This document shows positions 2,401 to 58,914 of a stretch of DNA of 64,000 nucleotides, piece after piece; the first letter of the stretch is position 1; every line of letters starts with the position of its first letter. The notes below the pieces were generated by a model. The model was given only the letters and a program-made list of their open reading frames with translations, searched no databases and was not told where the DNA came from. Origin of the DNA: the human T2T-CHM13v2.0 reference genome, Homo sapiens. The stretch lies in the NCBI RefSeq assembly GCF_009914755.1, contig NC_060928.1; one strand, 5' to 3'. The position numbers and the translations under genes were made by a program.

Positions 2401-4148
2401 GAGTAACTTATATGTTGTAATAAAATTGAATTAACATATGTGTTATTGGCTAATGGGTGGGCTGCTTGTGGTTGGAAACTGTTATCATAAAGTGAAAGTA
2501 TGACAATCCTTATTACACAGTGGAAAAATAGTTAAATTCTCACCACTATAAGACAAAATATATTTTATGAACTTAACAGAACTAGTAAAGAGATCGAAGA
2601 ACAAAATTCTAGCAGTGTGTTTTGGCTATAGTTGACAAATTGCTATAAAAAAGGGATGAGCTCAGAAAATATTTGCATGATTGAAAGCAGAAGGAAGAAT
2701 AAAAATAATCCAGAAATTCAGAGACTTGTAGGATTGAAAGATGTAGCTGTTTCTTATCACCAACTTATAAAATACAAAACTAAGAAGGCCTTTAAGTGTA
2801 AGGGCTGATTAGAATACATCCTTGCTGTAAGATTCAAATGAATGTTATGGCTGCCACAACAGCTGGTAAGACATGTGAAAGAATTTAGGTACCATCCGGC
2901 ACACTTCTCCCTTAGACAAAATGGCCAAGTGAAAAGAAATTAGAAGTATAATTTCTTAGGTAACAGAGGCAGATTATGTCAAGAAAGAGACATAGAAGAA
3001 AGGCATGTTTATCAATGGACTGTGAGTATGAGTATCAGCACCTGAAAAAGAATAGCTCTGAGAAATTTGTACTACTAAAAAAAACCATGGTCCTGGATAT
3101 GTGCTCTCCAAGGTGGTAGCCACCAGCCACATGGAGCTATTGAGTGTGACGTGGCTAATGTGATGAAAGAAATTAAATTTTTAAATTTTATTTTGATTAA
3201 TTTAAATTAAAATCCTGAAGCATGTTAAATTTTTTTGTTAAACACAATTTTATTTTTTGGAAAACCTGTTTCCACTGAAAATGTAGCATCATAATTGAGA
3301 TATCTGTACATGTAAAATATACCCTGCACTTTCAGACTTATTAAAAAAAAAAAGTAAAATATCTCATTCATGATCATTTTATATTGACTGTAAAATATAA
3401 CATTTTACACATTTGGGTTAAATAACGTAGATTAGGAAAATGAATTTTACCTGCTTATTTTTTAAAAATTTTTAATGGAATATTTTTAAATGGCTTAAGT
3501 GGTCTGCATTATGTTTTAGCAGATTGTACTGACTGGACTGAAAAACAGTTGTGACAATTTGGGACTTTAAATCATCCTCGCACTCCTATACTTGAGCAGG
3601 CTTGAAACAAGCTGAGACAACCAGATGCCCAACCTCCAGGAAGCCATATTATCTACTTTACCTGTTTAAATATGGCAAAGTAAAAGAATGGGGGGAAAAA
3701 AAAGTCTTCTCCAGAGAGCAGCTTGAGAGCCATGAAAGCAATGGACCATGGAGCTCCTCTCAAGAGGGGATAATCCTCATCCCCAAGGAGTGGGCACTCA
3801 TAATTTCTGCCTAAGGAGACAAATACAGAACATTTGTTGGTTGCTGTGTCTTCCATTACTCTCCTCTCTCAGTGTGTATTACTGATATTCCCTCCCTGCT
3901 CTCTCCCCATATATCAGATGGATGCAGTCAGAATACTTATTTTGGTGTACAGAGCAAAATAAGCTATATTCAGACTCAAGTTAGAGACTGCTGAGCATAA
4001 CCCCTGAGACAGAAACAATCATACATCATAAAACAATCCTGGGCTTTGAGCTAGATGCCCTGACCAGAGAGAGCCGGCTTCTCTCACTTGGAAAGTATCT
4101 CCTTATTTTCTAACTACAGGAAAGAAAGTTAGCTGAATATGTGGGGCA
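2401..4148 (+). mobile_element. MLT1 internal region (degraded)
   Basis: Lies between two MLT1-type LTRs; atccttattacacagtggaaaaatagttaaattctcacc resembles MaLR-int. Confidence 0.5.
3098..3531 (+). mobile_element. hAT-Charlie DNA transposon (Charlie1b/MER33-like) nested in MLT1-int
   Basis: gtagccaccagccacatggagctattgag start and aattgagatatctgtacatgtaaaatatac core. Confidence 0.75.
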
Positions 4149-21142: not shown

Positions 21143-21330
21143 TTAATTATTTCCTAATAATTTTATATTAGATGAGGTTTGAGCTTAAAGGTTTGTTTTT
21201 CTTTTAATTTTTGGTAGCATCAAGAGTATCAGAATATTTGGATATAGAAACAACATTGAAAAAATTCAAAAAGTGGTAAATTATAGTTGAAATTTCCCTT
21301 TTGGTTCTGAAAGAATTAATGACTTAGTAC

Positions 21331-21765
21331 TGTTAAAACAAAAGCTTTGGGAAAATTAAAGTTAACAGATTGTAATTGAGAGAAAAAAAAAGATTCACAA
21401 ATTGGGCGGCTCTCAGAACTGGAACAGATTCAGAGAGACTCTGGAGATACTGCATGGTCAAAGAAGATTTATAAGCAGAGACAGGAAAGTGATATACAGA
21501 AAATTGAAGTGACGTACACAGACAGCCAGGTTGGTTGGAGCTGAGCATTTTTCTTATTTGAACACAATTTGAACAGTTGGTCACCTATGAGTGGTTGAAC
21601 TATGGCTTGTGTGATTGGCTGTGACTCACCTATTCTTATAGAAGCATTTTCCTAAGTTAGGTTTTCAATTTGCTTACCTACTAGGTAAGGTTGCAGTTCA
21701 TAAGCAAGAACTTAAGTATGCAAGTATGGATGTTTTCTCAGGCCTAATTTTAGTTTGACTTAACA
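21331..21765 (-). mobile_element. 3' LTR (MER57 family)
   Basis: tgttaa...ttaaca termini; homologous to 29542-29963; ttatttgaacacaatttgaacagttgg MER57 motif. Confidence 0.88.
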
Positions 21766-29537: not shown

Positions 29538-29541
29538 GATC

Positions 29542-29963
29542 TGTTAAAGTAAAACTTTAGACAAATGAAACTCAACAGAGTTTGAGAAAAAAAGATGAAC
29601 AAATCAGGCAGCCCTCAGACTCAGAACAGATTTAGAGAGACTCTAGGGGTGCTGCATGGACAGACATTTATGAACCGAAAAAAGAAAGTGATGTACAAAA
29701 AGTGGAAGTGAGGTGCAGAGACAGCTGGGTATGTTACAGCTAAGCATTTCCTTATTCGAACATGGTTTGAACAGCTGGTTGCCTTTGAGTGGTTGAAGTG
29801 TGGCTGCTGTGATTGGCTGAGGCTCAACTATTGCTGCAAAAGCATACTCCTAAGTTAGAATTTTTGTTTGTTAACCTGCTAAGTAAGATTGTAGTTCATA
29901 AGTAAGAACTCGAGTATGAGAGTACAAAGTCTTTCTCAGGCCAGATTATAGTATGATTTAACA
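29542..29963 (-). mobile_element. 5' LTR (MER57 family)
   Basis: tgttaa...ttaaca termini; colinear with 21331-21765. Confidence 0.88.
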
Positions 29964-31389
29964 TTACTAATGAAAAAACTACAAATCCACACAGAACCTA
30001 TATAATGTCTTTCTGACCAATTTTTAATATATAGAAGAAGAAATGATATTAAGATGTGCAGAAAAGTTATGGAAGTGTTTGGAAAATGCTTAAAAAATTG
30101 GGGCTGTCATTCTTACATTAAATTCTAGAAGATAATTAATTGTTTTGTTTGTTTTACTATTTACAAATCTAGGAAATAATAGCTAAATTATTTCTTGCTA
30201 CTTTTTTCTAAAATGTACTCAGGTTTAGCCTGTAGAGATAAGGAGTGGATTATAATAATAGAATGTAATTGTAACCTTATGTCATTTGTACTTTAACAAC
30301 AGCTTTCAATTTTTATTTTTTCCAGGAAAAGTTGCTCTTTGAGGAGATTTGAAAGGACTTTTTAAAAATTCTATTAAAATAATATTGAAAATGGAACTTT
30401 TAACAAGACAAAATAAAACTTCATTAACAAATGAAATCTTAGATTGAGCACATACAGCTGGATAGCTTAGCAGCTTCCAAATAATAAATCATGTAAAAAT
30501 ATAAAAAACATTTCATTTTACAAAATGAAAGATTATATGTTAGATTTCATGCTTCATATATATGGACTGAATTTCTATATTCAATCATCTCAAATAAATT
30601 GTGCTTTTAGAACATATCTTAAAGCAGATAAGCTAAAATGGGGGTTATTTTTACTCTCAAAAAGTAGCACAAAGCTTACAGTATTTTAGAAATCTTTTGG
30701 TTAATTTTCTTAAAAATTAAATAAAATATAATGACTAGATACCGAAAAGCTCTCCAGAGGTGGATATACCCATTTGCTAAAGATTTCCTTGAAAGTGATT
30801 AATGCTTAGACAAAAAACACGACAGAATTTTTCAAAGTCATAAAAGTTTTGATCATTGAGTATCCCAGTGATAGTAATTATCACCAGACACAAAGGCATG
30901 CAGAAGTGCAACCATTTATGAAAGTTTTTATTAATATTTATATTCATAAATTGAGGTGATTTAGAAGTATCCTGAAGTTTTTGAAAGTATACAAGATAGT
31001 TATTTATTTGTGTATTTGTTTTTATTTTATGTATATAAATTTTCTTCACCATTATGCAATAAATCCATGTAACAAAATTATGCAAGCATCATATAATTTC
31101 CACTTTTTTTACTTTCCCACACTTCCACCTTTTTCATTTAATAGTGTGGTTATTTTCAAGCATTTAAGATATTGATATTATTGAAGAAGTTTGGAATATA
31201 ATGCTCTCAGTAAAAAAATCTGTTCAAATAAACAGCAAGAGTCAGGTTTTTCATTCCAAGGTAGGGAAAAAAAATAAGTTACAGTTAAAGGCATATGTTG
31301 TAGAATAATTTCCATTAGTTTCTAGAAGAGGGAAGATGTAGAATAAAAATACACAGCTGTTACATTTATTTAAGATGATTACTATGCCT

Positions 31390-31822
31390 TTTTCTTTTTT
31401 TTTTTTTTTCTTTGAGACAGGGGTCTCCTTCAGTTGTTCAGGCAGAGCAGTTCATTTAAACCTCCGCCTACAGGGCCCAAACCATCCTCCCACCTCAGCC
31501 TCCTGAGTAGCTGGGACCACAGGCATGCACCACCATGCCTGGTTAATTTTTGTATTTTTTGTAGAGATGGACGTTTCTCCATGTTTCCTAGGCTGGTCTT
31601 GAACTTGTGAGCTCAAGCTATCCTCTGGCCTTGGCCTCCCAAATTCTGATCAGGTCGTGGCCACTAGTTTTGTTTATCAGTGATCACCTCATTACTAAAC
31701 CCAACAAGCATTTCTCAATTTCCATCTTGCTTAACATCTCAACACTCTATTTCTTAGAGATACTTCTTTCTCCTATTACATAACCATGAAGACCACCATG
31801 ATGGATTTCAGGTGTGAGCCTG
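31390..31822 (-). mobile_element. AluJ interrupted by a 164-bp local templated insert
   Basis: Alu runs to ggcctcccaaattctg and resumes ggatttcaggtgtgagcc; TSD ctat(g/a)ccttttt at 31382 and 31825. Confidence 0.9.
31644..31807 (+). repeat. Direct dispersed copy of 32964-33131
   Basis: About 90% identical by manual alignment (about 14 substitutions and 2 indels). Confidence 0.95.
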
Positions 31823-32649
31823 ATCTATACCTTTTTTAAAAAGACTCAGAGATGAAAAAAAAAAAATTAGGAAATATAAAATTAAATAATTAAAAAGTAA
31901 ACTCAAACAATGAAATTATTTGTCTGAAGGAAGCGGAACATATGCTTTTAAGGCATTTGAATGCAATAAAAAGCAAAACAACACAAAACAAAGAAAATCT
32001 TGTGCTAGAAACATGCTTAAGATTCTCTGAAAACTAAGAGAAAAGAAAATATGATCTTCAAATTAATTTAAAAATAATATCCTGCAAATACTTGCAGAGA
32101 TAATTTTTTTCTTAACATAACATCAGTGAGGAATATATCACCTAACCTTACATAAAAGACCTTGACAACTATTGTTAACAAAGTATCTTAGAAATGATGG
32201 TTAGTGAAAATGTACTGTACCATTTAATTCTAACCCAGCAACTATGAAAACATTGAGGCAAGTTTGGCCTTTTTAATCACGAAAAAATTTTGCACTCTAT
32301 TACAGACTGTGATCTGAGTTAATTGTGTGACCCTGAAGCCAATATTTGCCCTTTCTGAGACTTTTTGTTTCTTCCTGTTTAAAAAGAATTGTGGAAATCA
32401 GGATTAGCGTAAAGAAATAGTTAACTAAATTATCCTCTAGATCATAACCCTCCCATAGTTTTTCTACACAGATGCAAAATATGAATTAATCTCACATACT
32501 ATATACCACTGTACTTTCAAAGAGTCTTCAAATAGTTATGCCCAGTTGACAAGGAAACTGCTGCTTTGACTCCACCACTCAAAAATAAGATGTCAGTAGC
32601 AGTAACTGTAAGTCCCGTTCCAGCTATTCAAACTAAAAAGGAGTTCATG

Positions 32650-32932
32650 GAACTGAACATGGTTGCTCAGGCCTATAGTCCCAGCTGCTCAGGAGGCTGA
32701 GATGAGAGAATCACTTGAAGCCAGGAGTTTGACACCACCCTGGACAACACAGTGAGACCTCCATCTCTAAAAAATATGAAAAATTAGCTGAGCATGTAGT
32801 CCTAACTACTCAAAAGGCTGAGGCAGGAGAATTGCTTGAGCCGGAGAGTTTGAAGCTGCAGTGAGCTATGATCACACAACTGCACTCCAGGTTGGACAAC
32901 AGAGTGATATTCCATCTCAAAAAAAAAAAAAA
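32650..32932 (+). mobile_element. Alu SINE (AluJo/Jr-like)
   Basis: Diverged dimer with gtgagctatgatcac and polyA. Confidence 0.88.
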
Positions 32933-32959
32933 GTCATTTCTTTGTTTTCTCTTGTTCTT

Positions 32960-33100
32960 CCATTTCTGATCAGGTCATGGCTGCTAGTTTTGTTTATCAG
33001 TGATCACCACATTACTAAACCCAACGGGCATTTCTCAATTCTCATCTTAACTTAATATCTCAACACTCCATTTCTTAAAGCTACTTCTTTCTCCTTCCAT
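32960..33100 (+). mobile_element. L2 fragment (donor of the templated insert)
   Basis: tgatcaccacattactaaacccaacgggcatttctcaattctcatctt resembles the end of L2 ORF2. Confidence 0.55.
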
Positions 33101-33808
33101 TACATAACCATGAAGATCACCATGATGGATTCTTGGAATTCTTACACGCAAAATATTTTTAAATAATGTTTAGAAATATTTATGCAGGATACCGTGGTAA
33201 TTCTTCTTCTCAGTTTGCCACAAACAATACGTTGACTCAGCCTTGTATCTTTGAAGTCTGATTTTCCAGCCTGCGAGAGTAGTTTTTTCTTCACACAAAA
33301 CTCATGTCTGCTGTTTACATGTCTGTACTACATCAATTAGGAAGAGAAATATAACAGCTAAGGAAAAACTTCACTCAAACCCCCTTAATCTTTAGTTTTT
33401 CCTTTCTCAGAATATGAGATTTATTGGAAATTACTTTTAACTAGAATGCTGGGTTTTAATCTAAATAGAGAAAGATATTCGCCAAGACGATTAAGCATCT
33501 ACATCCAGCAATCACCTTATTCTTTCCTGTTCTATTAGCTATCCTCTTCTGGGAACACTATATATACAATGAGGTTTCTCTCTGACGGAGGCAATCAATC
33601 AATCAATCAATCAATAAAACATAAATAACAGTTATACTAAAAAATACACGTTACCGTTTGATTTAACAAATAGCATAGAATTTGTGTTGACAGCTTAGTG
33701 TCAATCTTTCTTGAACTTTTTATTAGCTCCGCTACTTTGCCAGTTCTCTTAAATTGCCAGAGGAGCAATTTAATTACGTGTAGAATAAGGATAAGAATAC
33801 CCAGCCTG

Positions 33809-34111
<303 letters not shown>

Positions 34112-34204
34112 TTATTCGGAGGATTGCCTGTAACAATGTATGGAAAGCACTATACAACCCAAAAATAATATAGAATTATAACTTTTTTTTTTCAAAAGAG
34201 AAAG

Positions 34205-34620
34205 GAATTAGTTTTCTAGGGCTGCTATAGCAAAATCATGTACCACAGACTGAGTTAGCTTTAATGACAGAAATTGATTATGTCACAGTCCTGGACAATA
34301 GAAGTTCCAGTAGAGCATGGCAGAGTTAATTCTTTCTGAGGACTGTAATGGATAATCTGTTCTATGCCTGTCTCCAAGTTTCTGGTGGTTTGTTGGCAAT
34401 CTTTGGCATTCCTTGGCTTGTTAAGCACATTTCTGCCTTGGTGTTCATATGGCCTTCTCCCTGTGTAGGTGTCTGTGTCCAAATTTCCCCTTTTTATAAG
34501 GAATCAGTCATACTGAATTAGGAGTCTACCCTACTCCAGTATGACCTAATCTGAACATTCTAAATTACTGGGATTAGTAATTCAATCTATAAATTTTGGA
34601 GAGGCATAATCTAGCCCAGA
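34205..34620 (-). mobile_element. MLT1C-like MaLR LTR
   Basis: ttagttttctagggctgctatagcaaa...ggcaatctttggcattccttggcttg...ccaaatttcccctttttataagg. Confidence 0.8.
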
Positions 34621-34647
34621 ATGTTACATTATAAAAAAAGTGATCTT

Positions 34648-34690
34648 GGGGAGACAGAGAGAGACTCTGTCTAAAAAAAAAAAAGAAAAA
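34648..34690 (+). mobile_element. Extremely 5'-truncated Alu stub
   Basis: ggggagacagagagagactctgtct plus polyA; flanks aaaaagtgatctt and aaaaaggtctt resemble a TSD. Confidence 0.7.
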
Positions 34691-36339
34691 GGTCTTACAG
34701 CTCACACTTAGTCCTTTAGTCAGTAAATACTTCCTGGCTCTTATTCGCTGGCAATCACAGAGAGATTTTTCTAACTACACTCTTTAGAATATTTTTATTC
34801 ATAGAAAAAAGAAGAAAATGACTCTCTTAATTCCTCATTTGTTGATTACTGCTTATTTAGGCCATTAAACACCTTCAACTATTTTTTTATTTGAAAAATC
34901 ATTTCAGTTAAAAAGCTCTCTGTAAATCTATTCATGCAATAAATTTTGAGAGCTATTCCGTCTATGAAAGACTATTACCATGCCTTCTAAAATAAAATTA
35001 AAGACAGAGTACAAGCAATTATAAGGGTTTTAATGTTTAAATTCTAAGGAAATGAGGAATAATTAAGGTTTTCAACATTTTACAAAAGGACAGAGAGAAA
35101 TAAGAAGCATTACTTCTAATTGAAGGTATTTACAGCTAGATCTCCAATACGTTCATTCAACAAAACAATTGCTATAGCTGTATCTTTTTAATTGAATGTC
35201 ACAAAAAGCCAATAATAAATATTTAGAATATGCAACCTATTTTAAGCTAGAGTTCAGTCAGTATGCTATGGAATAAACTTTTTTTTTTCTTAGAGATGCA
35301 TGTGTTACCATATGAGATCCTAATATCAAATGGATAATTATTTTTAGATTCATTAAACTCCCCAAATATATCTATCAAGTTCAACTTAGATTAGGGAACA
35401 GGACTTGTGTGCTATTTAAGCCTCCCAGCAGGGTTTGATTATTCAACACATGTTCTCATAAAATTGAGCACATACTGATATAAAGGTAGTAATAGAGCAA
35501 GTAGGTATTACATAGCACAACTCCTCAAGGTAAACAAGGATGGGTAATTTAATTTCCAAGGTGACAAATTATGTTATCATGAGTGAGCAGGCAATTTCTT
35601 CCCCAAAATAAACTAAGTAGGCCAGGACAGCTTTAACTAGATGAAATCATTATCCTTTTAAAATACACAAGTGTTGAATAAAGTTAGTTTTCTCTGCTTT
35701 AGTGTCTTGGTAGAAAATGGCATAAGAAAACAGTGCTGCCTTAAGGTAATGTTCACCTGTTTAAATTCTTCAGTAAGGGAATAAAAACAGTATTACTTTA
35801 AAAAAAATACAGGTGTGTATACACACATATATTCTCTCTCCTATATTTTTAATAAATTAGAGTGCAATAATAGATTATTTAAAATAAACATTTCTTTATT
35901 CCCTTACCTTTCTAAAGGGAAAGCATGTAAAAATATTTATTTATATCTTGGATTTTTATAGCAATTATTAAAATTATTTAAGAGGCTACAGCTTTAATTA
36001 TCTTCTGACCACCTTCTACAGCACCATGTGTCAGACAGGTTCTAGGCATATTGAGAACATTTCTCTTCTTGTGTTCGTAATGGTACCAACCAAGATATTC
36101 CTGATAATGACCTCTCAGGCCTTCCTTAGTATTTTTCTATTTGAATTTATGTTTAAAATTATGGCTAATCCTTAGTAACCCCCATAGCGTTGAATAATCT
36201 CTAAAATAGTTTGCATTCTCAATTCCTTAAATTTTCTTAACCTCTTTCATGCTGGTTAAAAGACCTATATGTATCTTGAGTTTCATGGACTATGAAATAT
36301 AAGAATTTGAAGACTTTAAACTTTATTAAAAGCTAATAA

Positions 36340-41500: not shown

Positions 41501-41782
41501 ATGATATAACTTTTATTTAATAAGGGATAAAAATGTTAGCTTTATACCATAAAAATTCTTTTAAATATACAAATTAGGGACGGATTTTTAAATTCAAAAG
41601 TAATGAAAGTAATTCAGATTATTAAATGATTGTCCTCAGATTATACATTACCTTTTTCTGATGTACTTAAATAAAATTCAACTTATGTACATCTGGAAAA
41701 ATTGTAAACCTAAGGAGACATATATTCTTTCTTTAGGTGTTTTATTTATTTCCTTCCGATTTCTATTCCCACAGTGTTTTAT

Positions 41783-42170
41783 AGAGCTGAGATGCTCAAG
41801 AGTTAGCCACCAGCCACAAGTGACTATTGAATACTTGGGATGGGGCTAGTGTAACAAAGGTAATAAATTTTTAATTCTAATTTATTTTAATTAAAAAACT
41901 GAAGTGTTATATACTTTTCTGTTAAATATAAGTTTATTATTTTGGTGGGATTACAGTTCACTTCCACTGTTGACAATGTTCTATCTTACTTGAGATGTAT
42001 TATAATGTACACAGCTGATTTTGAAGACTTAAGAAAAATGGATTTAATATATCTCACTAATAATTTTTATGTTGATTACAAGTGGAAATAAAAATATTTT
42101 GGATATGTTGCAGTAAATAAAATGTTATTAAAATTAATTTCACCTGTTACTTTATAATGTTTTCATTTTT
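41783..42170 (+). mobile_element. hAT-Charlie (Charlie1b-like) DNA transposon
   Basis: tagccaccagccacaagtgactattgaatact; homologous to 3098-3531. Confidence 0.75.
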
Positions 42171-48180: not shown

Positions 48181-50298
48181 TTCATAGATACTGATTGATG
48201 ATACAAGATCATAGAGAAGAACAAACCATGCAGAGGGAACAGCCAGTTCAGGAGTATATCAGATAATTTCAATTAATCATAAAAAGAGTGGTATGGCTGG
48301 GATGACATTAGCAAGGGGAGAGTAATAGCATATAAATCTGAAGTTGTTTAGTTAGGAGATATAATTTTTGTGTCATTGGCATATAAATGAAATTGAAAAA
48401 CATTAAAGTAGATCATGTCATCAAGGATGTATGATACTCACGCCCTGATCACTGGAGTACTCTGGCATTTAGAACTTGGGCAAATAGACTATGATGTAAA
48501 TGGCACCCACTACAATTGTGCAGATTATATCTGACACAACCATATCTGGTGACCTTCAGAATAACTATAAAAGAAGACAAGAGTAATTATAGGAGTAAAA
48601 ATAATATCAGAAAGGGATATGCTGTATCATTCAAGAGTCAAGCATAGAAAAGAATATTTAAAAGAGATTAATTTGACACAGCAAGTGGCTATTCAGGTGA
48701 TAAAATTTGTTAAACGGCCATCCAGGAGATGAGATTAGAATCAGAAAGATGCTAAACCAGCCCTAGCCTTGAATGAGAAAGGGAGAGGGCAACATTCTAG
48801 GTAGTTAGAGCTTGGGGTCAGCTGGTGGAATTTGGAATAATGGAGGTCCCATCTATTAGGTGGCTGTTGAGTTTGTAATGTGTCTCTTCATTAATTTTAA
48901 CTTGCATGCAAACATGGAGTGTTCCTGAGCTGAGGCAGATTATCATTATTCACAAACAAAGCAAACAATGACCACATGTTTCTTCACACCGTAAGTCTTA
49001 CCCCTAGAGCAGTGTAATGAATCCAAGCCAAATGTCTTCTTCATATAAACTGTGTATCATAGACAAGAAATGTAAAATAATGTGTTTTTTTCCATTTTTA
49101 TATAGGAGAGAGACAGCTTTCCTCATTCCCTTCTGAAATGAAAGGGGCAAGAAACAACTTTTCTCCCTTGAGACACTATGAAAAATATCCTGAATTCTTA
49201 CCTTAACCTTTTGGAATATAAATGTATTAATATCTTTCCAAGAGTCAGATAAACTCTGGGTGTCTCTGGCACTTATGACCTAGAGATTTCTCCAACCTCT
49301 GGGCTTTATACCATCTGAAATGTAAATACCTCGGGAGAAAATCCTTCAGTATTCTTGGCACCTTAGGGCTTAACCTACGGACCTCATCTGGGCCCCTTTG
49401 GCCCTCTGAAATCAGAGCAATTAGCTAGACTAATGGTTATAAATCTAATTCTCATGGTATAACAAGAGTAAAATGTTTCAGAGAGACATGAAAGCAAGTA
49501 TTACAAGTCTTTATATTCCATTCTTTTCTATGTCTCAGGAATTAAGACTTTCCATAGGAACACTGAAAAATCTAAGTACCTATTATTTCCTACCTACTTG
49601 GAGTCACATAAGTGTTAGAGTCAATGCCAAGTTTAACACCAGAAGGAAAGGGAGATAGGGAATAATATTCTGACTTCTCCTTTGCTCCAACTTCTGGTCT
49701 CAAACCAGGGTCTCCAGCTGGCTGAACTAAGCTGAAAGTCAGGTGCCCGGGAAAGACAACCTATAGAGATTTGGATTTTGTGTAACACAGAAGATAACAG
49801 GAAAAAAAAAAAAAAAAAAAAAAGAAAAAGAAAAACAAGGAAAGATAATTGGGGAAAATAAGCACAGGAGATTAGCACAAGTGTCATTGGAGCAGATAAA
49901 GTAAGTGTTTGAAGGAGGTAAATTGATTATGTCAGCTATTGCTGAAGGGTCAAGCGAGATGTGGACTGAGAGCTGTCATTGGAATAAACAACCCTAACAA
50001 GAACTACTTTACTGGAGTCATGATGGGGAAAATGTGGTTCAAGAAAGAATGGGAGAGATTAGTATCAGAGAATATATGCAATTTTCAAGAAACTTTGTCT
50101 TTTTTTATTTTTTTGAGTCAGATTCTCACTAGTGGTACAATTATGATACACTGTACCCTCAACCTTCTCAGACTACTGAGTAGCTGGGTTTACATTCACA
50201 TACTACCATGGCCCAGCTAGTTAGTAATATTTTTATTTTTATTTTTTTCAGAGACAGGGTCTCATTATGATGCCTAAGCTGTCTTCAGACTCCTGGCC

Positions 50299-50494
50299 AT
50301 GTGTCAAGAGTGAATAATATTAAAAATAATTAAAAAGTTGGTAATTCAGCAAATAGAAGACAGGTTTTGGAGCCATGTTCTCTAACAATATAAAAAGCTC
50401 CCTTGTTTAGGAGCACAGGAATTCATCCTGGCTAATAGGAGAGCAGTGGAGTGTGGGCACTTAGGCTGGTTCTTGGCTATGTCTTTGATCTCTC
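50299..50494 (+). repeat. Direct copy of about 50970-51163
   Basis: Shared cctggctaataggagag...gtggagtgtgggcact...gctatgtctttg; roughly 85% identity by eye. Confidence 0.93.
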
Positions 50495-50759
50495 AAGTAC
50501 ATCTTTAGTTGACCTGAGAAAAATCAACAATATAACAAATGAACATAAAACAAAATGAAAAACAGTAATTTAAGTAAATTTATTTCACTCAGTAAACCCG
50601 TGCTCCAGAGTAAACATGAGATAAAAAATTTGAATGTGTGGTGTCTTTCTACTATCCCTCTCAGAATATGAACATCTAAATGAAATGAACAAGATTTCAG
50701 TGCTTAAATGAATAAGGAGTGATTTCTTTTCCTTTTTTTCTTTTTTAGCAAGCCTTTTA
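50495..50759 (+). repeat. Direct copy of about 52631-52879
   Basis: Shared actcagtaaa...gagtaaacatgagat...acatctaaatg...ttttttagcaag; roughly 80% identity by eye. Confidence 0.93.
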
Positions 50760-51439
50760 CATCGTTTGCACCATCCTCTCTCCTCAGCCTCCCAAATCAT
50801 TGAGATTACAGATGTGAAGTACTGTGCCTGGCTCAAGAAACTTTGTCTTAAAGGGCATAGAAAGGAGGGAATGCTAGAGTGATAACTGATGGTAGAAATG
50901 ACAGCTGGGGTGAGTTGTAGTTGTTGTTTTTGTTGTTGTTTAACATTAAAGACATAAGAGAATGTTTGTATGTAGTGTGAAATATACTAAAAAGAATAAA
51001 AAAGTTGGTGATTCAGAAAAGAAAAGACAGTTTTTGGAACCATGTCCTCTAGTGGAATATAAAAAACTCCCTTATTTGGGAGCAAAGGATGTCCCTCCTG
51101 GCTAATAGGAGAGTGGTGGAGTGTGGGCACTGATGCTGGTTCTTAGCTATGTCTTTGTTCTCTTTACTCATCTTATCTTTTGTGTCTAGAATATATTTCC
51201 TCTCCCTCTACATATCTAAATCCATTGCACTTCTAGCCAGCTGAAATCTCACTTACAGCTAACAAGTCGATACAGTAATATCACCTCACTCCTGAATTTC
51301 ACCAGCTTGAATGACACACATCTAAGTAATGCCATTGAAAAGGGCACGGAAACAAAACATATCCTACACCTATGCTAGTGCGGTGTTTCTTCTTTTATTA
51401 ATGAGAGATACTCTACATTGATAAATCCACCACAGTGCT

Positions 51440-52160: not shown

Positions 52161-53599
52161 AAAAGGAATCACACTGAGTCTATTTGTTGATCATTTCTTG
52201 GGTACTGAAGATATAATGCCTCTCCTACTCATGCCGCCTACTTTACGGTAAAGAAACTAAATGTTAATGATTCCACATTGCCTACCCATGTGTAGGTAAC
52301 ATAGCTTCTGGAAGGAACTCAGGCCTGAAAAAAATCAGAACTTCATTCTTTGAGATACTCTTTAAGATTGTGAAAACTATGCCGTAACTGCTCTTTTTGC
52401 TGCTATTTTCATCTCCTAACAGAATGCAAGAGGTTTGAGCTCTAAAGAAGTAGTAAAAGAATGAACAACTAATATTTTTGTGCCAATTATTGCTTTCCCA
52501 AGCTGTGTAGGTGTATTTCCTTCTCAATTAAGTGATAAGCTTCTTGAAGACAGTGATTAGGGCCTCATTCTTTATTTTTCTTAATGTCTGGGGTCAACAA
52601 TTTCCTGTCCTAAGTGCATTTGGCTTCAGCAAATACATCTTTATCTGAGAAATCAACCCAATAACAAAGAAAAATAAAACAAAATAATAAATAGTAACTT
52701 AAATAAATTGATTTTACTCAGTAAATTCATTCTCCGGAGTAAACATGAGATCAAAGATTTGAATTTGTGGTTTCTTCTTTCTGACCCTCTCAGTACAAAC
52801 ATCTAAATGGAATGAGCAAAATTCCAGTATTTAAATGAGTAAGGAGTATTTTTTTCTTCCTTTTTTAGCAAGTCTTTTATGCCTAATAGGAAAACAAAAA
52901 GAGTGAAAGAAAGAAAAGAAGGAAGGGAGGGAAAGAAAGAGAAAAAAGAAAAAAGAAGGAGCTCTTTCTTTCAGCACTGGGAAAAAATAATGCAGCATGG
53001 GCTTATGGTGAGAATTTTATTTCCAATATATTGCTTTTACAAGGATTTTTTCAGGAGTAAATGTGAACAATATGTTATGTTTGCATACTTACTTTAAAGC
53101 CAAACTTTCCAAAGGCAGTAACATGAGCATATACACTAGTGATTGAATATTTAGAAATCTTGATCCACAAATACTTGGTTGCTTCAGTTTTTCTTTAGAG
53201 GTCTCTGATATAATCCCTCCCATTTTGCATTATTTAGAAGCAAAAAATCTCATATTTCATTAAATTTATTAAGTCATTAACTCTAAGTAAAACACATCAT
53301 TAATTTAATAACACTTTTGGGGTAAAATGAGGAACACTACATTAAAAATTAAGACATATGTCTTTTTAATGAACTCACATACATCACTGATTTGAAAATT
53401 AATTTTAAGCATGTAAGTATAATTTTTAATTCATGAATTGAATGCTTAAAAATATAGGTCATAACAAAGAATACTAAATTGGGACAAACCTATGTTACTG
53501 TTCTTTGCCTAACTGGCAATTATTACTATTATTTTGATTCATAAATATTTACAAACCCAAGCTTTTAAAAAATATAAAATGTTACATCTACATAAAATG

Positions 53600-56910: not shown

Positions 56911-57742
56911 GAATCAGAGACATTTTAAGTTAAAAGAGGGATCGGGGTTGAAGTCAGACTGCTCGTCGTGCCTCAAATAAAAATGATTCACAATGTTGAC
57001 AGTTAGGTGAGTTGACCCATTTGAATGGCTAAGTTTGGTCACATACACAGAATGACAACAGTCTGTAATCACAATGTACCCCCCAGCCTAGTAGCTACAG
57101 AATGTCTTTTGACATTAATTACAAGTCACATTGTAATATTAGAATCTCCAAAATGTGAATTTAAAAAAGAAATTTTATGTTTAGACTTATGAACATGTGT
57201 TGGTCTTTTAGAGAGGCCAGGAAACATGACTATTAGACTCAAGTTAAATTAAATACACTTTTTAATAGTTTTGCCCCTATCAAAATTTAGTTATACTTCA
57301 GATTATTCAAAATTAAAATCGTCTGTCTCTTTTTACTTGTCAGTTCATTTTCCTCTTAGGAATTCAGCTAGTTAAGCACATCAAACCAGTAGTCTTTGTT
57401 CTTCAATCAGAATTAATCATTACACATGCTGCAGAGGCGGGTAAGTGGCCAATTGTAAAGCTATATATAGCCCTCACTTTCTTTCTCTCTGGTTCGTTTT
57501 GTTCTCTCTCTCATAACTTTTAATAAGTTCCTCCAGTTTTAGGATTTCTCTGTTTCTCTGCAGTTTTTTCTACAATGTTATTTGATCTACCTTTACACTT
57601 ACTGTGTTTCTAGGAGTACCTCTTTAGGCAGCTAGCATTATGTTTAGGTAATGAGAGAGATGGATAATGCCATAATTGGTTTTACAACACCTTGGGGAAT
57701 TAATAGATTTAATTTACCAAGTAAATTTTAAAAAATAATTTT

Positions 57743-57890
57743 CTTGATTATAATTTACAAACTATTTATTAGGTAAGGCTCATATGTGTGATTATTTTGT
57801 AAAAGAACACTTACATTACTTGATTGTAATTTACACAGTACTTATTAGGTAAGGCTCATGTGTGTGATTGTTTTCTAAAAAAAACACTTA
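57743..57890 (+). repeat. Tandem duplication, 2 x about 76 bp
   Basis: cttgatt(a/g)taatttaca...ttattaggtaaggctcat...acactta at 57743 and 57819. Confidence 0.92.
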
Positions 57891-58914
57891 AATTTAAATA
57901 GCAATATTTAAAATGGAAACTGAATTTGTTGGAGATTTCTTTAAAATTATTATAACATTAGTTATCACCTGAATTCTCAATAAATATATATATGAAATTC
58001 AAAACTTCACATAATTAAACAGAATTTATAAAATAGTATCAGATGAAGAATTTTGTAATTTATTCTGAGCTGTTTTACAATAGTCAAAAGATTCATTTGA
58101 AAACTAAATTGATAATATCAGTTGATCTTTCTCCATGAATTGATAGGGCATTATCTGTTTTTAATATGAATAAATTGTACAGAAGAGATTTAAATAAAAT
58201 TAGGTTTTTTGCCTGAAATTTTATAAATATAAATTTAATAAATATGAAACTTTTATTTTCTAGAGAGTTTTTCTTTTTCCTGACTTAAGTAAAATTCCTG
58301 TGTTATAAATCAAGAGGACAAGCAAATGTTTAATTTAAATTATATTGGATATAGAACATTTATAAGGTAATCGGGATGTGGGTTTTGGATGCTAGAAATC
58401 GCCCTCATTTACCTAGAACACAGTTTACACAAGACTGACATACAAGATAGAATTTGGGGATTATAATGATATTACTATATAGAACATACCTTAGAATCCT
58501 CAGTCTTCCAATTGGTTATTACTTATTATGGGGAGATTTTCTTAGGACATTCTCCCTTAAATTCTGGACTTCTTTCAAAAGAGGTCTTCTTAATCTTTTT
58601 CTCCTTGTTGGTCAGCCTCCAGCCCCTCATTTCTTGATCACTTCATGCATGGCAGTTTAGCACTCCTCCCTATTCCTCTTCCCAAACTGGACCTCAGATA
58701 GGTCTTTCAAAATCTAAATGCTTTTTAAAGTTCTTAACTTTAAAAGTCTATCTGTAGTAGATCTTTACAATCAGTAGGAAATTTCTTTGCCATTTACAGA
58801 CATTGCTAATTTTTTAATGTGATGAGCTTTGGAGGGATTTCTATATCTACCACCCAGATCAATCATAAGAGTTCAGGTTGGGGATGGAGTTTATTGTTAA
58901 AATAATCATTTGAA

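What the first reader, a model, noticed from the sequence alone, without database searches (positions are those of the whole stretch)
31382..33131. Second AluJ split by a local templated insert with microhomology at both ends
Seen: in a minus-strand AluJ the consensus cccaaagtgctg|ggattacagg is opened and 31644-31807 is inserted. The insert is an about 90% identical direct copy of 32964-33131, about 1.15 kb beyond the Alu. The left junction shares ttctg and the right junction shares ggatt between Alu and donor, essentially no Alu sequence is lost, and the TSD is preserved. Inference: an out-and-back template switch. The roughly 10% divergence seems low for AluJ age, which favours a post-insertion repair event.
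Basis: partly seen in the sequence, partly recalled or inferred. Interest (0 to 1): 0.7.

Follow-up and report, generated by a model that had tools for sequence, protein, structure and literature searches.

The report
Old Alu patched with nearby copy
An ancient break inside an Alu repeat was mended by copying 164 bases from about 1.3 kb away, an ordinary example of a repair scar already catalogued by the hundred in the human genome.

Summary
Window 31644-31807 (164 bp) is a direct copy of 32964-33131. The two differ at 14 of 164 aligned bases plus two small indels. The copy sits inside an old minus-strand Alu whose two parts are contiguous in Alu coordinates and share one target-site duplication. 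The T2T genome holds only these two copies. The right junction has an exact 5-nt microhomology, GGATT.

The locus meets every criterion I could test for the 'repair-mediated duplications' of Pace et al. 2009 (PMC2671141). That paper lists 824 proximal cases with mean length 162 bp, donors mostly under 3 kb away, 2-9 nt microhomology, and no poly(A) or target-site duplication.

I did not find this locus in their Table S1. The likely reason is that its right Alu fragment is only 18 nt. By divergence the event is about 40 My old, with a wide error.

A second, older event with two donors lies at 50299-50759 in the same window. Interest is low.

The parts
31382..31393 (.). Left target-site duplication of the host Alu
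   Evidence: 11 of 12 identical to 31825-31836. Extends to about 15-17 nt if a 2-bp indel is allowed (read).
31394..31643 (-). Host Alu, 3' part (T-run tail to about consensus position 31-37)
   Evidence: Aligns to positions 31-281 of the window-derived Alu consensus. 50 of 233 positions mismatch (21.5%; 19.2% outside CpG). BLAST hit 31459-31643 to positions 37-220. Sub-threshold Rfam SRP and mir-1268 hits on the minus strand.
31644..31807 (+). Acceptor: 164-bp templated insert. The first 5 nt (TTCTG) and last 5 nt (GGATT) are the junction overlaps.
   Evidence: Direct copy of 32964-33131. Only two copies in the genome.
31803..31820 (-). Host Alu, 5' part (consensus positions 13-30). Overlaps the insert by the GGATT microhomology.
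   Evidence: 16 of 18 identical to window-derived consensus positions 13-30. The Alu is therefore 5'-truncated by about 12 nt.
31825..31836 (.). Right target-site duplication of the host Alu
32652..32932 (+). Second old Alu, inverted relative to the host. Its A-tail ends 31 nt before the donor.
   Evidence: 61 of 255 positions mismatch the window consensus (23.9%). Rfam SRP sub-threshold hit from 32652. A-run 32919-32932.
32964..33131 (+). Donor: 168-bp single-copy sequence
   Evidence: A query of the donor plus flanks (32926-33400) matches the acceptor over exactly 32964-33131 and nothing else in the genome at E up to 10.

Best explanation
After the Alu had integrated, its DNA broke, or synthesis stalled, about 30 nt from its 5' end. 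A free 3' end primed on a few matching bases 1.2-1.3 kb away on the same chromosome and copied 164-168 nt. It then let go and re-annealed through GGATT at the original site, and repair was completed. The result is a proximal 'repair-mediated duplication': a neutral scar in an intron of the lncRNA gene LINC02462, with no sign of function.

The variant I prefer is inferred, not shown. I put it at about 0.6 given the general reading. A double-strand break is resected, which exposes the donor strand on the other side of the break. The left 3' end anneals there at (T)CTG and is extended. The new strand dissociates and anneals to the other end through GGATT. This is synthesis-dependent strand annealing, or synthesis-dependent microhomology-mediated end joining.

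By divergence the event is roughly 40 My old. At a pairwise rate of 2.2e-9 per year, as used in PMC2671141, K2P 0.092 gives about 42 My. The 95% interval of the raw difference, 4.7-13.9%, spans about 20-70 My.
For: Shown:
- The copy, its boundaries and its orientation.
- Only two copies in the 3.1-Gb assembly, with a donor-plus-flank query matching the acceptor at exactly the donor boundaries.
- Alu parts contiguous in consensus coordinates and enclosed by one target-site duplication.
- No A/T run and no duplication of Alu bases at the insert ends.
- Microhomology of 5 nt on the right and 3 nt exact on the left, expected in 0.9% and 7% of random junctions.
- Insert and donor differ by 8.5%, against 21.5% between the host Alu and the consensus.

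Match to the described class (PMC2671141, sections 6-8 read): proximal acceptors average 162 bp (maximum 619); 753 donors lie under 3 kb away, with a peak near 1.2 kb; microhomology is 2-9 nt and deletions are 1-15 nt; none of the 39 inspected proximal cases had a poly(A)/T tail.

A second event of the same kind in this window joins two donor copies at a 6-nt CATCTT overlap, as copy-and-switch synthesis predicts.
Against: No empty orthologous site could be examined, because no primate genomes are on hand. The pre-insertion sequence is therefore inferred from a consensus built from only 11 local Alus. The left junction does not fit a simple primer-extension picture. If the Alu end had primed through CTG, the Alu bases before it should have survived, yet the observed bases equal the donor's and one base is missing. 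This needs either later mutations or a 6-nt loss without microhomology. The sequence does not separate break repair from a replication-fork template switch. The genome search skips very common words and scores only the best candidates, so a very diverged third copy cannot be excluded.
Confidence: 0.88

Rival explanations
1. The same copy-and-return event, but made at a stalled or collapsed replication fork (FoSTeS/MMBIR-type template switching, out and back) and not at a two-ended double-strand break.
For: The structure is identical: microhomology at both switches and almost no loss of target bases. MMBIR is described as making templated insertions through template switching at microhomology (PMC8421209, passages seen). 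PCAWG describes 'cycles' of templated insertions that return to the departure site (PMC7025897, passages seen).
Against: The MMBIR insertions searched for in PMC8421209 are inverted copies within 100 bp. The PCAWG events are mostly between chromosomes. The germline catalogue that matches this size and distance attributes them to synthesis-dependent strand annealing. The sequence alone cannot decide.
Confidence: 0.3
2. An RNA-templated patch (class 2 templated sequence insertion): a piece of the LINC02462 primary transcript was reverse-transcribed and used to fill a break.
For: Size fits: experimental insertions were 73-414 bp, median 191. Junctions carry microhomology, with no target-site duplication and no poly(A) (PMC5110952, parts 1-2 read). 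The donor lies in an intron of a plus-strand lncRNA gene, according to the hub annotation.
Against: Those insertions come from distant regions spread over the chromosomes. A donor only 1156 bases away in cis is what DNA-templated capture predicts. The same holds for the second event in the window, whose two donors lie 0.2 and 1.9 kb away.
Confidence: 0.04
3. Two steps: a tandem duplication of the stretch from the Alu break point to the donor end (about 1.5 kb), followed by deletion of the first copy except for its last 164 bp.
For: It gives the same end product. Nothing in one genome excludes it formally.
Against: It needs two independent events whose breakpoints restore Alu continuity to within 1-6 nt. 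There is no trace of further duplicated sequence.
Confidence: 0.03
4. It is not a local copy at all, but an independent insertion of a small mobile element present at both places, a chimeric Alu source gene, or an assembly artefact.
For: None found.
Against: Only two copies exist in the genome. The insert has no terminal inverted repeats, no target-site duplication and no tail. No Rfam family matches the insert or donor beyond a chance-level hit at E 0.85. A difference of 8.5% between the copies is incompatible with a collapsed or duplicated assembly read.
Confidence: 0.01

Closest known systems
Proximal repair-mediated duplications (RDs) of Pace, Sen, Batzer and Feschotte 2009 (PMC2671141)
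   Same: An insert of at least 50 bp interrupts a transposable element at contiguous consensus positions. The insert occurs at only one other genomic place. The donor is on the same chromosome under 5 kb away (here 1156 bases; their peak is about 1.2 kb). Length is 164 bp (their mean is 162). Microhomology is 3-5 nt (theirs 2-9) and loss is 1-6 nt (theirs 1-15). There is no poly(A)/T. Many of their acceptors are Alus.
   Different: I did not find this locus in their Table S1. The right Alu fragment is only 18 nt, and a pipeline that needs both fragments annotated would probably miss it (inference). No empty site was checked here.
Class 2 templated sequence insertions and polymorphisms (Onozawa and Aplan, PMC5110952)
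   Same: A patch of about 70-400 bp at a break, with microhomology, no target-site duplication and no poly(A). The donor is left intact.
   Different: Their donors are distant, often on other chromosomes. They are enriched for transcribed sequence and sensitive to reverse-transcriptase inhibitors. Here the donor is 1.2 kb away, and at 8.5% divergence the insert is ancient rather than polymorphic.
MMBIR/FoSTeS templated insertions and PCAWG 'cycles of templated insertions' (PMC8421209, PMC7025897)
   Same: A copy-and-return path with microhomology at the switches. A string of templates can be joined, as in the neighbouring two-donor event.
   Different: These are mostly somatic or disease contexts. 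The MMBIR signature that was searched for is inverted and within 100 bp. PCAWG segments are usually far larger and lie on other chromosomes.
Short local 'doublets' of Thomas et al. 2004 (seen only as cited in PMC2671141 section 14; the paper itself was not read)
   Same: Short paired local duplications, which their authors suspected arise from imperfect break repair.
   Different: According to that citing passage, the earlier surveys of small duplications covered identical or nearly identical duplicons under 100 bp, and doublets are described as sharing many attributes of RDs. Here the copy is 164 bp and 8.5% diverged.

Membership tests
Proximal repair-mediated duplication (Pace et al. 2009) | An insert of at least 50 bp splits one transposable element. 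Both fragments have the same orientation, and their consensus end and start lie within +/-30 bp. | tested here: met
   A 164-bp insert. The fragments end and start at window-consensus positions 30 and 31-37, both on the minus strand.
Proximal repair-mediated duplication (Pace et al. 2009) | [quoted passage not shown] | tested here: met
   Two places only in the T2T assembly, with either copy as the query. Caveat: the search skips very common words.
Proximal repair-mediated duplication (Pace et al. 2009) | The donor is on the same chromosome, more than 50 bp and less than 5 kb from the acceptor. | tested here: met
   1156 bases between acceptor end and donor start.
Proximal repair-mediated duplication (Pace et al. 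2009) | No poly(A)/T tail of 5 or more at an insert end. Break-repair marks (microhomology, small deletion or filler) at the junctions. | tested here: met
   No tail. GGATT (5 nt) and CTG (3 nt) microhomology, 1-6 nt lost, no filler.
Proximal repair-mediated duplication (Pace et al. 2009) | An empty, uninterrupted orthologous site in a species that diverged before the event. | not testable with these tools
   No primate genomes or multi-species alignments are on hand.
L1-mediated insertion (class 1 templated sequence insertion, or retroposed copy) | A target-site duplication around the insert, a poly(A) tail after a polyadenylation signal, and insertion at a T-rich L1 endonuclease site. | tested here: not met
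   None of the three is present at 31644-31807. Criteria as given in PMC5110952.
Class 2 templated sequence insertion (Onozawa and Aplan) | [quoted passage not shown] | tested here: not met
   The only donor is 1156 bases away in cis. An RNA origin cannot be tested.
AluJ subfamily (host element) | Subfamily-diagnostic positions against curated consensus sequences. | not testable with these tools
   No Dfam or RepeatMasker library is on hand. Only relative age was measured: 21.5% from a consensus of 11 local Alus, second highest of the 13 Alu copies compared.

The most novel reading that the evidence does not exclude
This stretch of chr4q may be a long-lived germline hotspot for proximal repair-mediated duplication. 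Two Alus 19 kb apart were each patched from downstream DNA at different times (about 16% and 8.5% divergence). One of them is the rare type with two local donors. At least two further genome-unique or nearly unique local duplicate pairs lie in the 250 kb of flanks. None of those I looked up appears in the 2009 catalogue, so such scars may be several-fold more common than the catalogue suggests, or locally clustered.
Probability: 0.12. Interest if true: 0.4.

Novelty: new member of a known kind. Interest (0 to 1): 0.12.

Why it matters
It matters little by itself. This is one more neutral scar of imprecise break repair in an intron of a lncRNA gene, inside a gene desert. Its modest value is as a clean worked example: the donor, acceptor, junctions and relative age can all be read from one genome. 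It also shows that TE-annotation-based catalogues miss cases where one flank fragment is very short. A rescan of T2T genomes that accepts short fragments could revise the rate of this mutational process.

Tried and rejected
1. An Rfam scan of 31200-33400 at E up to 1 gave only sub-threshold Alu-type hits (SRP, mir-1268, mir-1285, mir-3135) on the two Alus, plus one chance-level hit (DdR1, E 0.85) at 32932-33003. That hit overlaps the first 40 nt of the donor. Nothing explains the insert.

2. The local alignment extends 14 columns to the left of the insert. That stretch has 9 matches, 4 mismatches and 1 gap in pyrimidine-rich sequence, for a net score of about +2. I treat it as chance, not as extended homology.

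3. I considered a hairpin between the two inverted Alus (arms 81% and 76% complementary) as the cause of the break. It would not bring the break site near the donor, and it was not tested. I dropped it as speculation.

4. The break lies in the part of Alu that I recall as the 26-bp recombination 'core'. I saw only a secondary mention of that core (PMC7905054 passage), and the original paper (PMC306663) is not held. One event supports no inference.

5. Frequency scan. With my own pipeline (it recovers both events in the window), 0 of 26 Alus in the 200 kb to the left and 0 of 7 in the 50 kb to the right carry a local-copy insert. In the window the figure is 2 of 16. My hand-computed one-sided Fisher p is about 0.10, which is not significant.

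7. Dating against the host Alu's own divergence gave inconsistent ages. The consensus comes from only 11 mixed-subfamily copies, so I used the pairwise rate from PMC2671141 instead.
Full report
**What is there.** Window 31644-31807 (164 bp) is a direct copy of 32964-33131 (168 bp). It was found independently by the repeat finder, by local alignment and by a self-BLAST of the whole window (89.3% over 168 columns, E 1e-56). In a global alignment the copies differ at 14 of 164 aligned positions (8.5%; K2P 0.092; exact 95% interval 4.7-13.9%). Twelve differences are transitions and two are transversions. There is also a 1-bp and a 3-bp indel. By my reading of the sequence contexts printed, four of the 14 differences are of the CpG-decay type; the script itself flagged two. 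Among non-Alu sequence in the window, this is the best-conserved dispersed duplicate.

**The host.** I built a majority consensus in a script from 11 other Alus of this window.
- The sequence to the left of the insert (31394-31643, minus strand) aligns to consensus positions 31-281, with 50 of 233 mismatches (21.5%; 19.2% outside CpG).
- The 18 nt starting at the last five bases of the insert (31803-31820) align to positions 13-30, with 16 of 18 identical.
- The two parts are therefore contiguous in Alu coordinates.
- One 12-nt target-site duplication encloses them: 31382-31393 and 31825-31836 are identical at 11 of 12 positions.

The Alu thus integrated as one piece, 5'-truncated by about 12 nt, and was split later. 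It and the inverted Alu at 32652-32932 (23.9% from the consensus) are the two most diverged of the 13 Alu copies compared. I could not test the label 'AluJ'.

**The junctions.**
- Right junction. GGATT is present in the Alu consensus, at the end of the donor (33127-33131) and in the observed sequence. This is an exact 5-nt microhomology.
- Left junction. The observed TTCTG is the donor's. At that place the Alu consensus reads the complement of CAGCAC. Only CTG is shared exactly (4 of 5 with a mismatch), and one base is missing. The alternative reading is a 6-nt loss without microhomology.
- There is no filler, no A/T tail and no duplication of Alu bases around the insert.
- In 200,000 random junction pairs from 30000-35000, microhomology of 5 nt or more occurs in 0.9% and of 3 nt or more in 7%.

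**No other donor.** Searching the whole 3.1-Gb assembly with the insert finds only the insert itself and the local donor at 89%. Searching with the donor plus flanks (32926-33400) at E up to 10 finds only itself and the insert, and the match covers exactly 32964-33131. The caveat is that the search skips very common words and scores only the best candidates. Rfam finds nothing in the insert or donor beyond a chance-level hit.

**Age.** PMC2671141 treats donor-acceptor divergence as accumulating at 2.2e-9 per year. On that scale K2P 0.092 is about 42 My, and the interval of the raw difference spans roughly 20-70 My.
- In the rows of their Table S1 that I saw, duplications scored 'All primates' mostly show 6-13%.
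- The four rows I saw scored present down to macaque show 4-9%.
- I therefore expect the insert in all catarrhines and perhaps in marmoset.

**Mechanism.** What is shown is a later, DNA-sequence-templated, copy-and-return insertion from 1156 bases downstream, with short overlaps at both switches. What is inferred is the pathway.
- I prefer synthesis-dependent repair of a double-strand break. Resection exposes the donor strand on the far side of the break. The left 3' end anneals at (T)CTG and is extended by 164-168 nt. The new strand dissociates and anneals to the other end through GGATT.
- Kilobase-scale resection would also explain why donors of this class lie mostly within 1-3 kb. That point is my inference.
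- A fork-based template switch (FoSTeS/MMBIR) gives the same product and cannot be excluded.
- An RNA-derived patch is unlikely because the donor is so close in cis.
- A tandem duplication followed by a deletion needs two precisely placed events.
- A mobile element, a chimeric source Alu or a misassembly are each contradicted by copy number, by the lack of element hallmarks and by the 8.5% divergence.

**Comparison with what is known.** Pace, Sen, Batzer and Feschotte 2009 (PMC2671141) scanned the human genome for exactly this pattern: transposable elements interrupted by at least 50 bp of sequence that has one other genomic copy. I read the abstract and sections 6, 7, 8, 11 and 14, and I searched Table S1.
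- They report 1,136 cases, of which 824 have the donor within 5 kb and 753 within 3 kb.
- Donor-acceptor distance peaks near 1.2 kb.
- Proximal acceptors have a mean of 162 bp, a median of 147 and a maximum of 619.
- At inspected junctions they found microhomology of 2-9 nt, deletions of 1-15 nt and filler of 1-68 nt.
- None of the 39 inspected proximal cases had a poly(A)/T tail.
- Many acceptors are Alus.

The present locus has 164 bp, 1156 bases of separation, 3-5 nt of microhomology, 1-6 nt lost and no tail. That makes it an average member of the class. It meets every defining criterion I could test. The one I could not test is the empty orthologous site.

**Is this locus already listed?** Table S1 has no chr4 acceptor between hg18 135.2 and 136.4 Mb. 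I place the locus there using assembly offsets that I recalled and did not compute. No chr4 row has a donor-acceptor distance of 1155-1159 or 1320. Of the 143 chr4 occurrences in the table I saw only the first 30 listed, so the negative rests on the number searches. The probable reason for its absence is that their method needs both fragments annotated, and here one fragment is only 18 nt (inference).

**The neighbourhood.**
- A minus-strand Alu at 50101-50832, with an exact 16-nt target-site duplication (50085-50100 and 50833-50848, read), is split at about 50299-50759.
- The insert is two joined direct copies. 50300-50505 matches 50967-51174 with 34 of 205 mismatches. 50494-50759 matches 52630-52879 with 40 of 250 mismatches.
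- Both donors overlap the junction in a shared CATCTT.
- The genome holds no other full copy. The only extra hit is 52 bp on another chromosome.
- Pace et al. found only five chimeric acceptors whose second donor lay within 3.5 kb of the first. I found no row with the matching inter-donor distance.

With a small pipeline that recovers both events, I scanned 200 kb to the left and 50 kb to the right of the window. None of the 33 Alus there (26 and 7) carries a local-copy insert, against 2 of 16 in the window. My hand-computed Fisher p is about 0.10, so the sample is too small to claim clustering. The flanks do contain local duplicate pairs that do not abut an Alu. One, inverted and 94% identical, is unique in the genome. 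Another, direct and 87% identical, has only weak partial hits elsewhere.

**Limits.** No orthologues, repeat-family library, population data or reads were available. The Alu consensus comes from 11 local copies of mixed age. The assembly-coordinate conversion and the position of the Alu 'core' are recalled. Supplementary files 1, 2 and 4 of PMC2671141 were not opened, so the breakpoint figure and the chromosome-distribution figure that the paper cites as Figures S1 and S2 were not seen.

**Verdict.** The locus is an ordinary member, apparently uncatalogued, of a class described in 2009.

Noticed in passing
window 50085-50848; donors 50967-51174 and 52630-52879: Another old minus-strand Alu, with an exact 16-nt target-site duplication, is split by a roughly 460-bp insert made of two joined direct copies of downstream single-copy DNA. 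The copies are 16.6% and 16.0% diverged from their donors. Both donors share CATCTT at the internal joint. This is a two-local-donor chimera, a rare subtype in PMC2671141 (5 cases). I found no Table S1 row with the matching inter-donor distance.
   Followed up: partly
L009:4242-4475 and L009:4948-5178 (own genome, about 146 kb left of the window): An inverted pair of about 234 bp at 94% identity, roughly 470 bp apart. These are the only two copies in the genome. It may be a younger inverted templated duplication.
   Followed up: partly
L025:5429-5627 and L025:6498-6698 (own genome, about 15 kb right of the window): A direct pair of about 200 bp at 87% identity, 1.07 kb apart. Elsewhere in the genome there are only two weak partial hits, at 74-75%. 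It has the same size and spacing as the finding but does not abut an Alu, so acceptor and donor cannot be told apart.
   Followed up: partly
L026:90-200 and L026:1407-1517: A direct pair of 111 bp at 74.8% identity, 1.3 kb apart.
   Followed up: no
window 21330-21765 and 29541-29963: A direct pair of 436 bp at 74.8% identity, 8.2 kb apart, and not Alu. It could be two copies of an old repeat family or two LTRs.
   Followed up: no
window 3117-3260 and 41804-41945: A 72.8% match between an upstream stretch and sequence inside the annotated LINC02462 exon (41775-41993). This suggests the exon derives from an interspersed repeat.
   Followed up: no
window 57740-57894: Two tandem units of about 77 bp at 86% identity.
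   Followed up: no
window 31395-31416 and 31845-31866: The T-run tail of the host Alu and an A-run just beyond its other end form a 22-nt inverted repeat, 86% complementary, that brackets the whole element (pair I5). It is A/T only and probably incidental.
   Followed up: no
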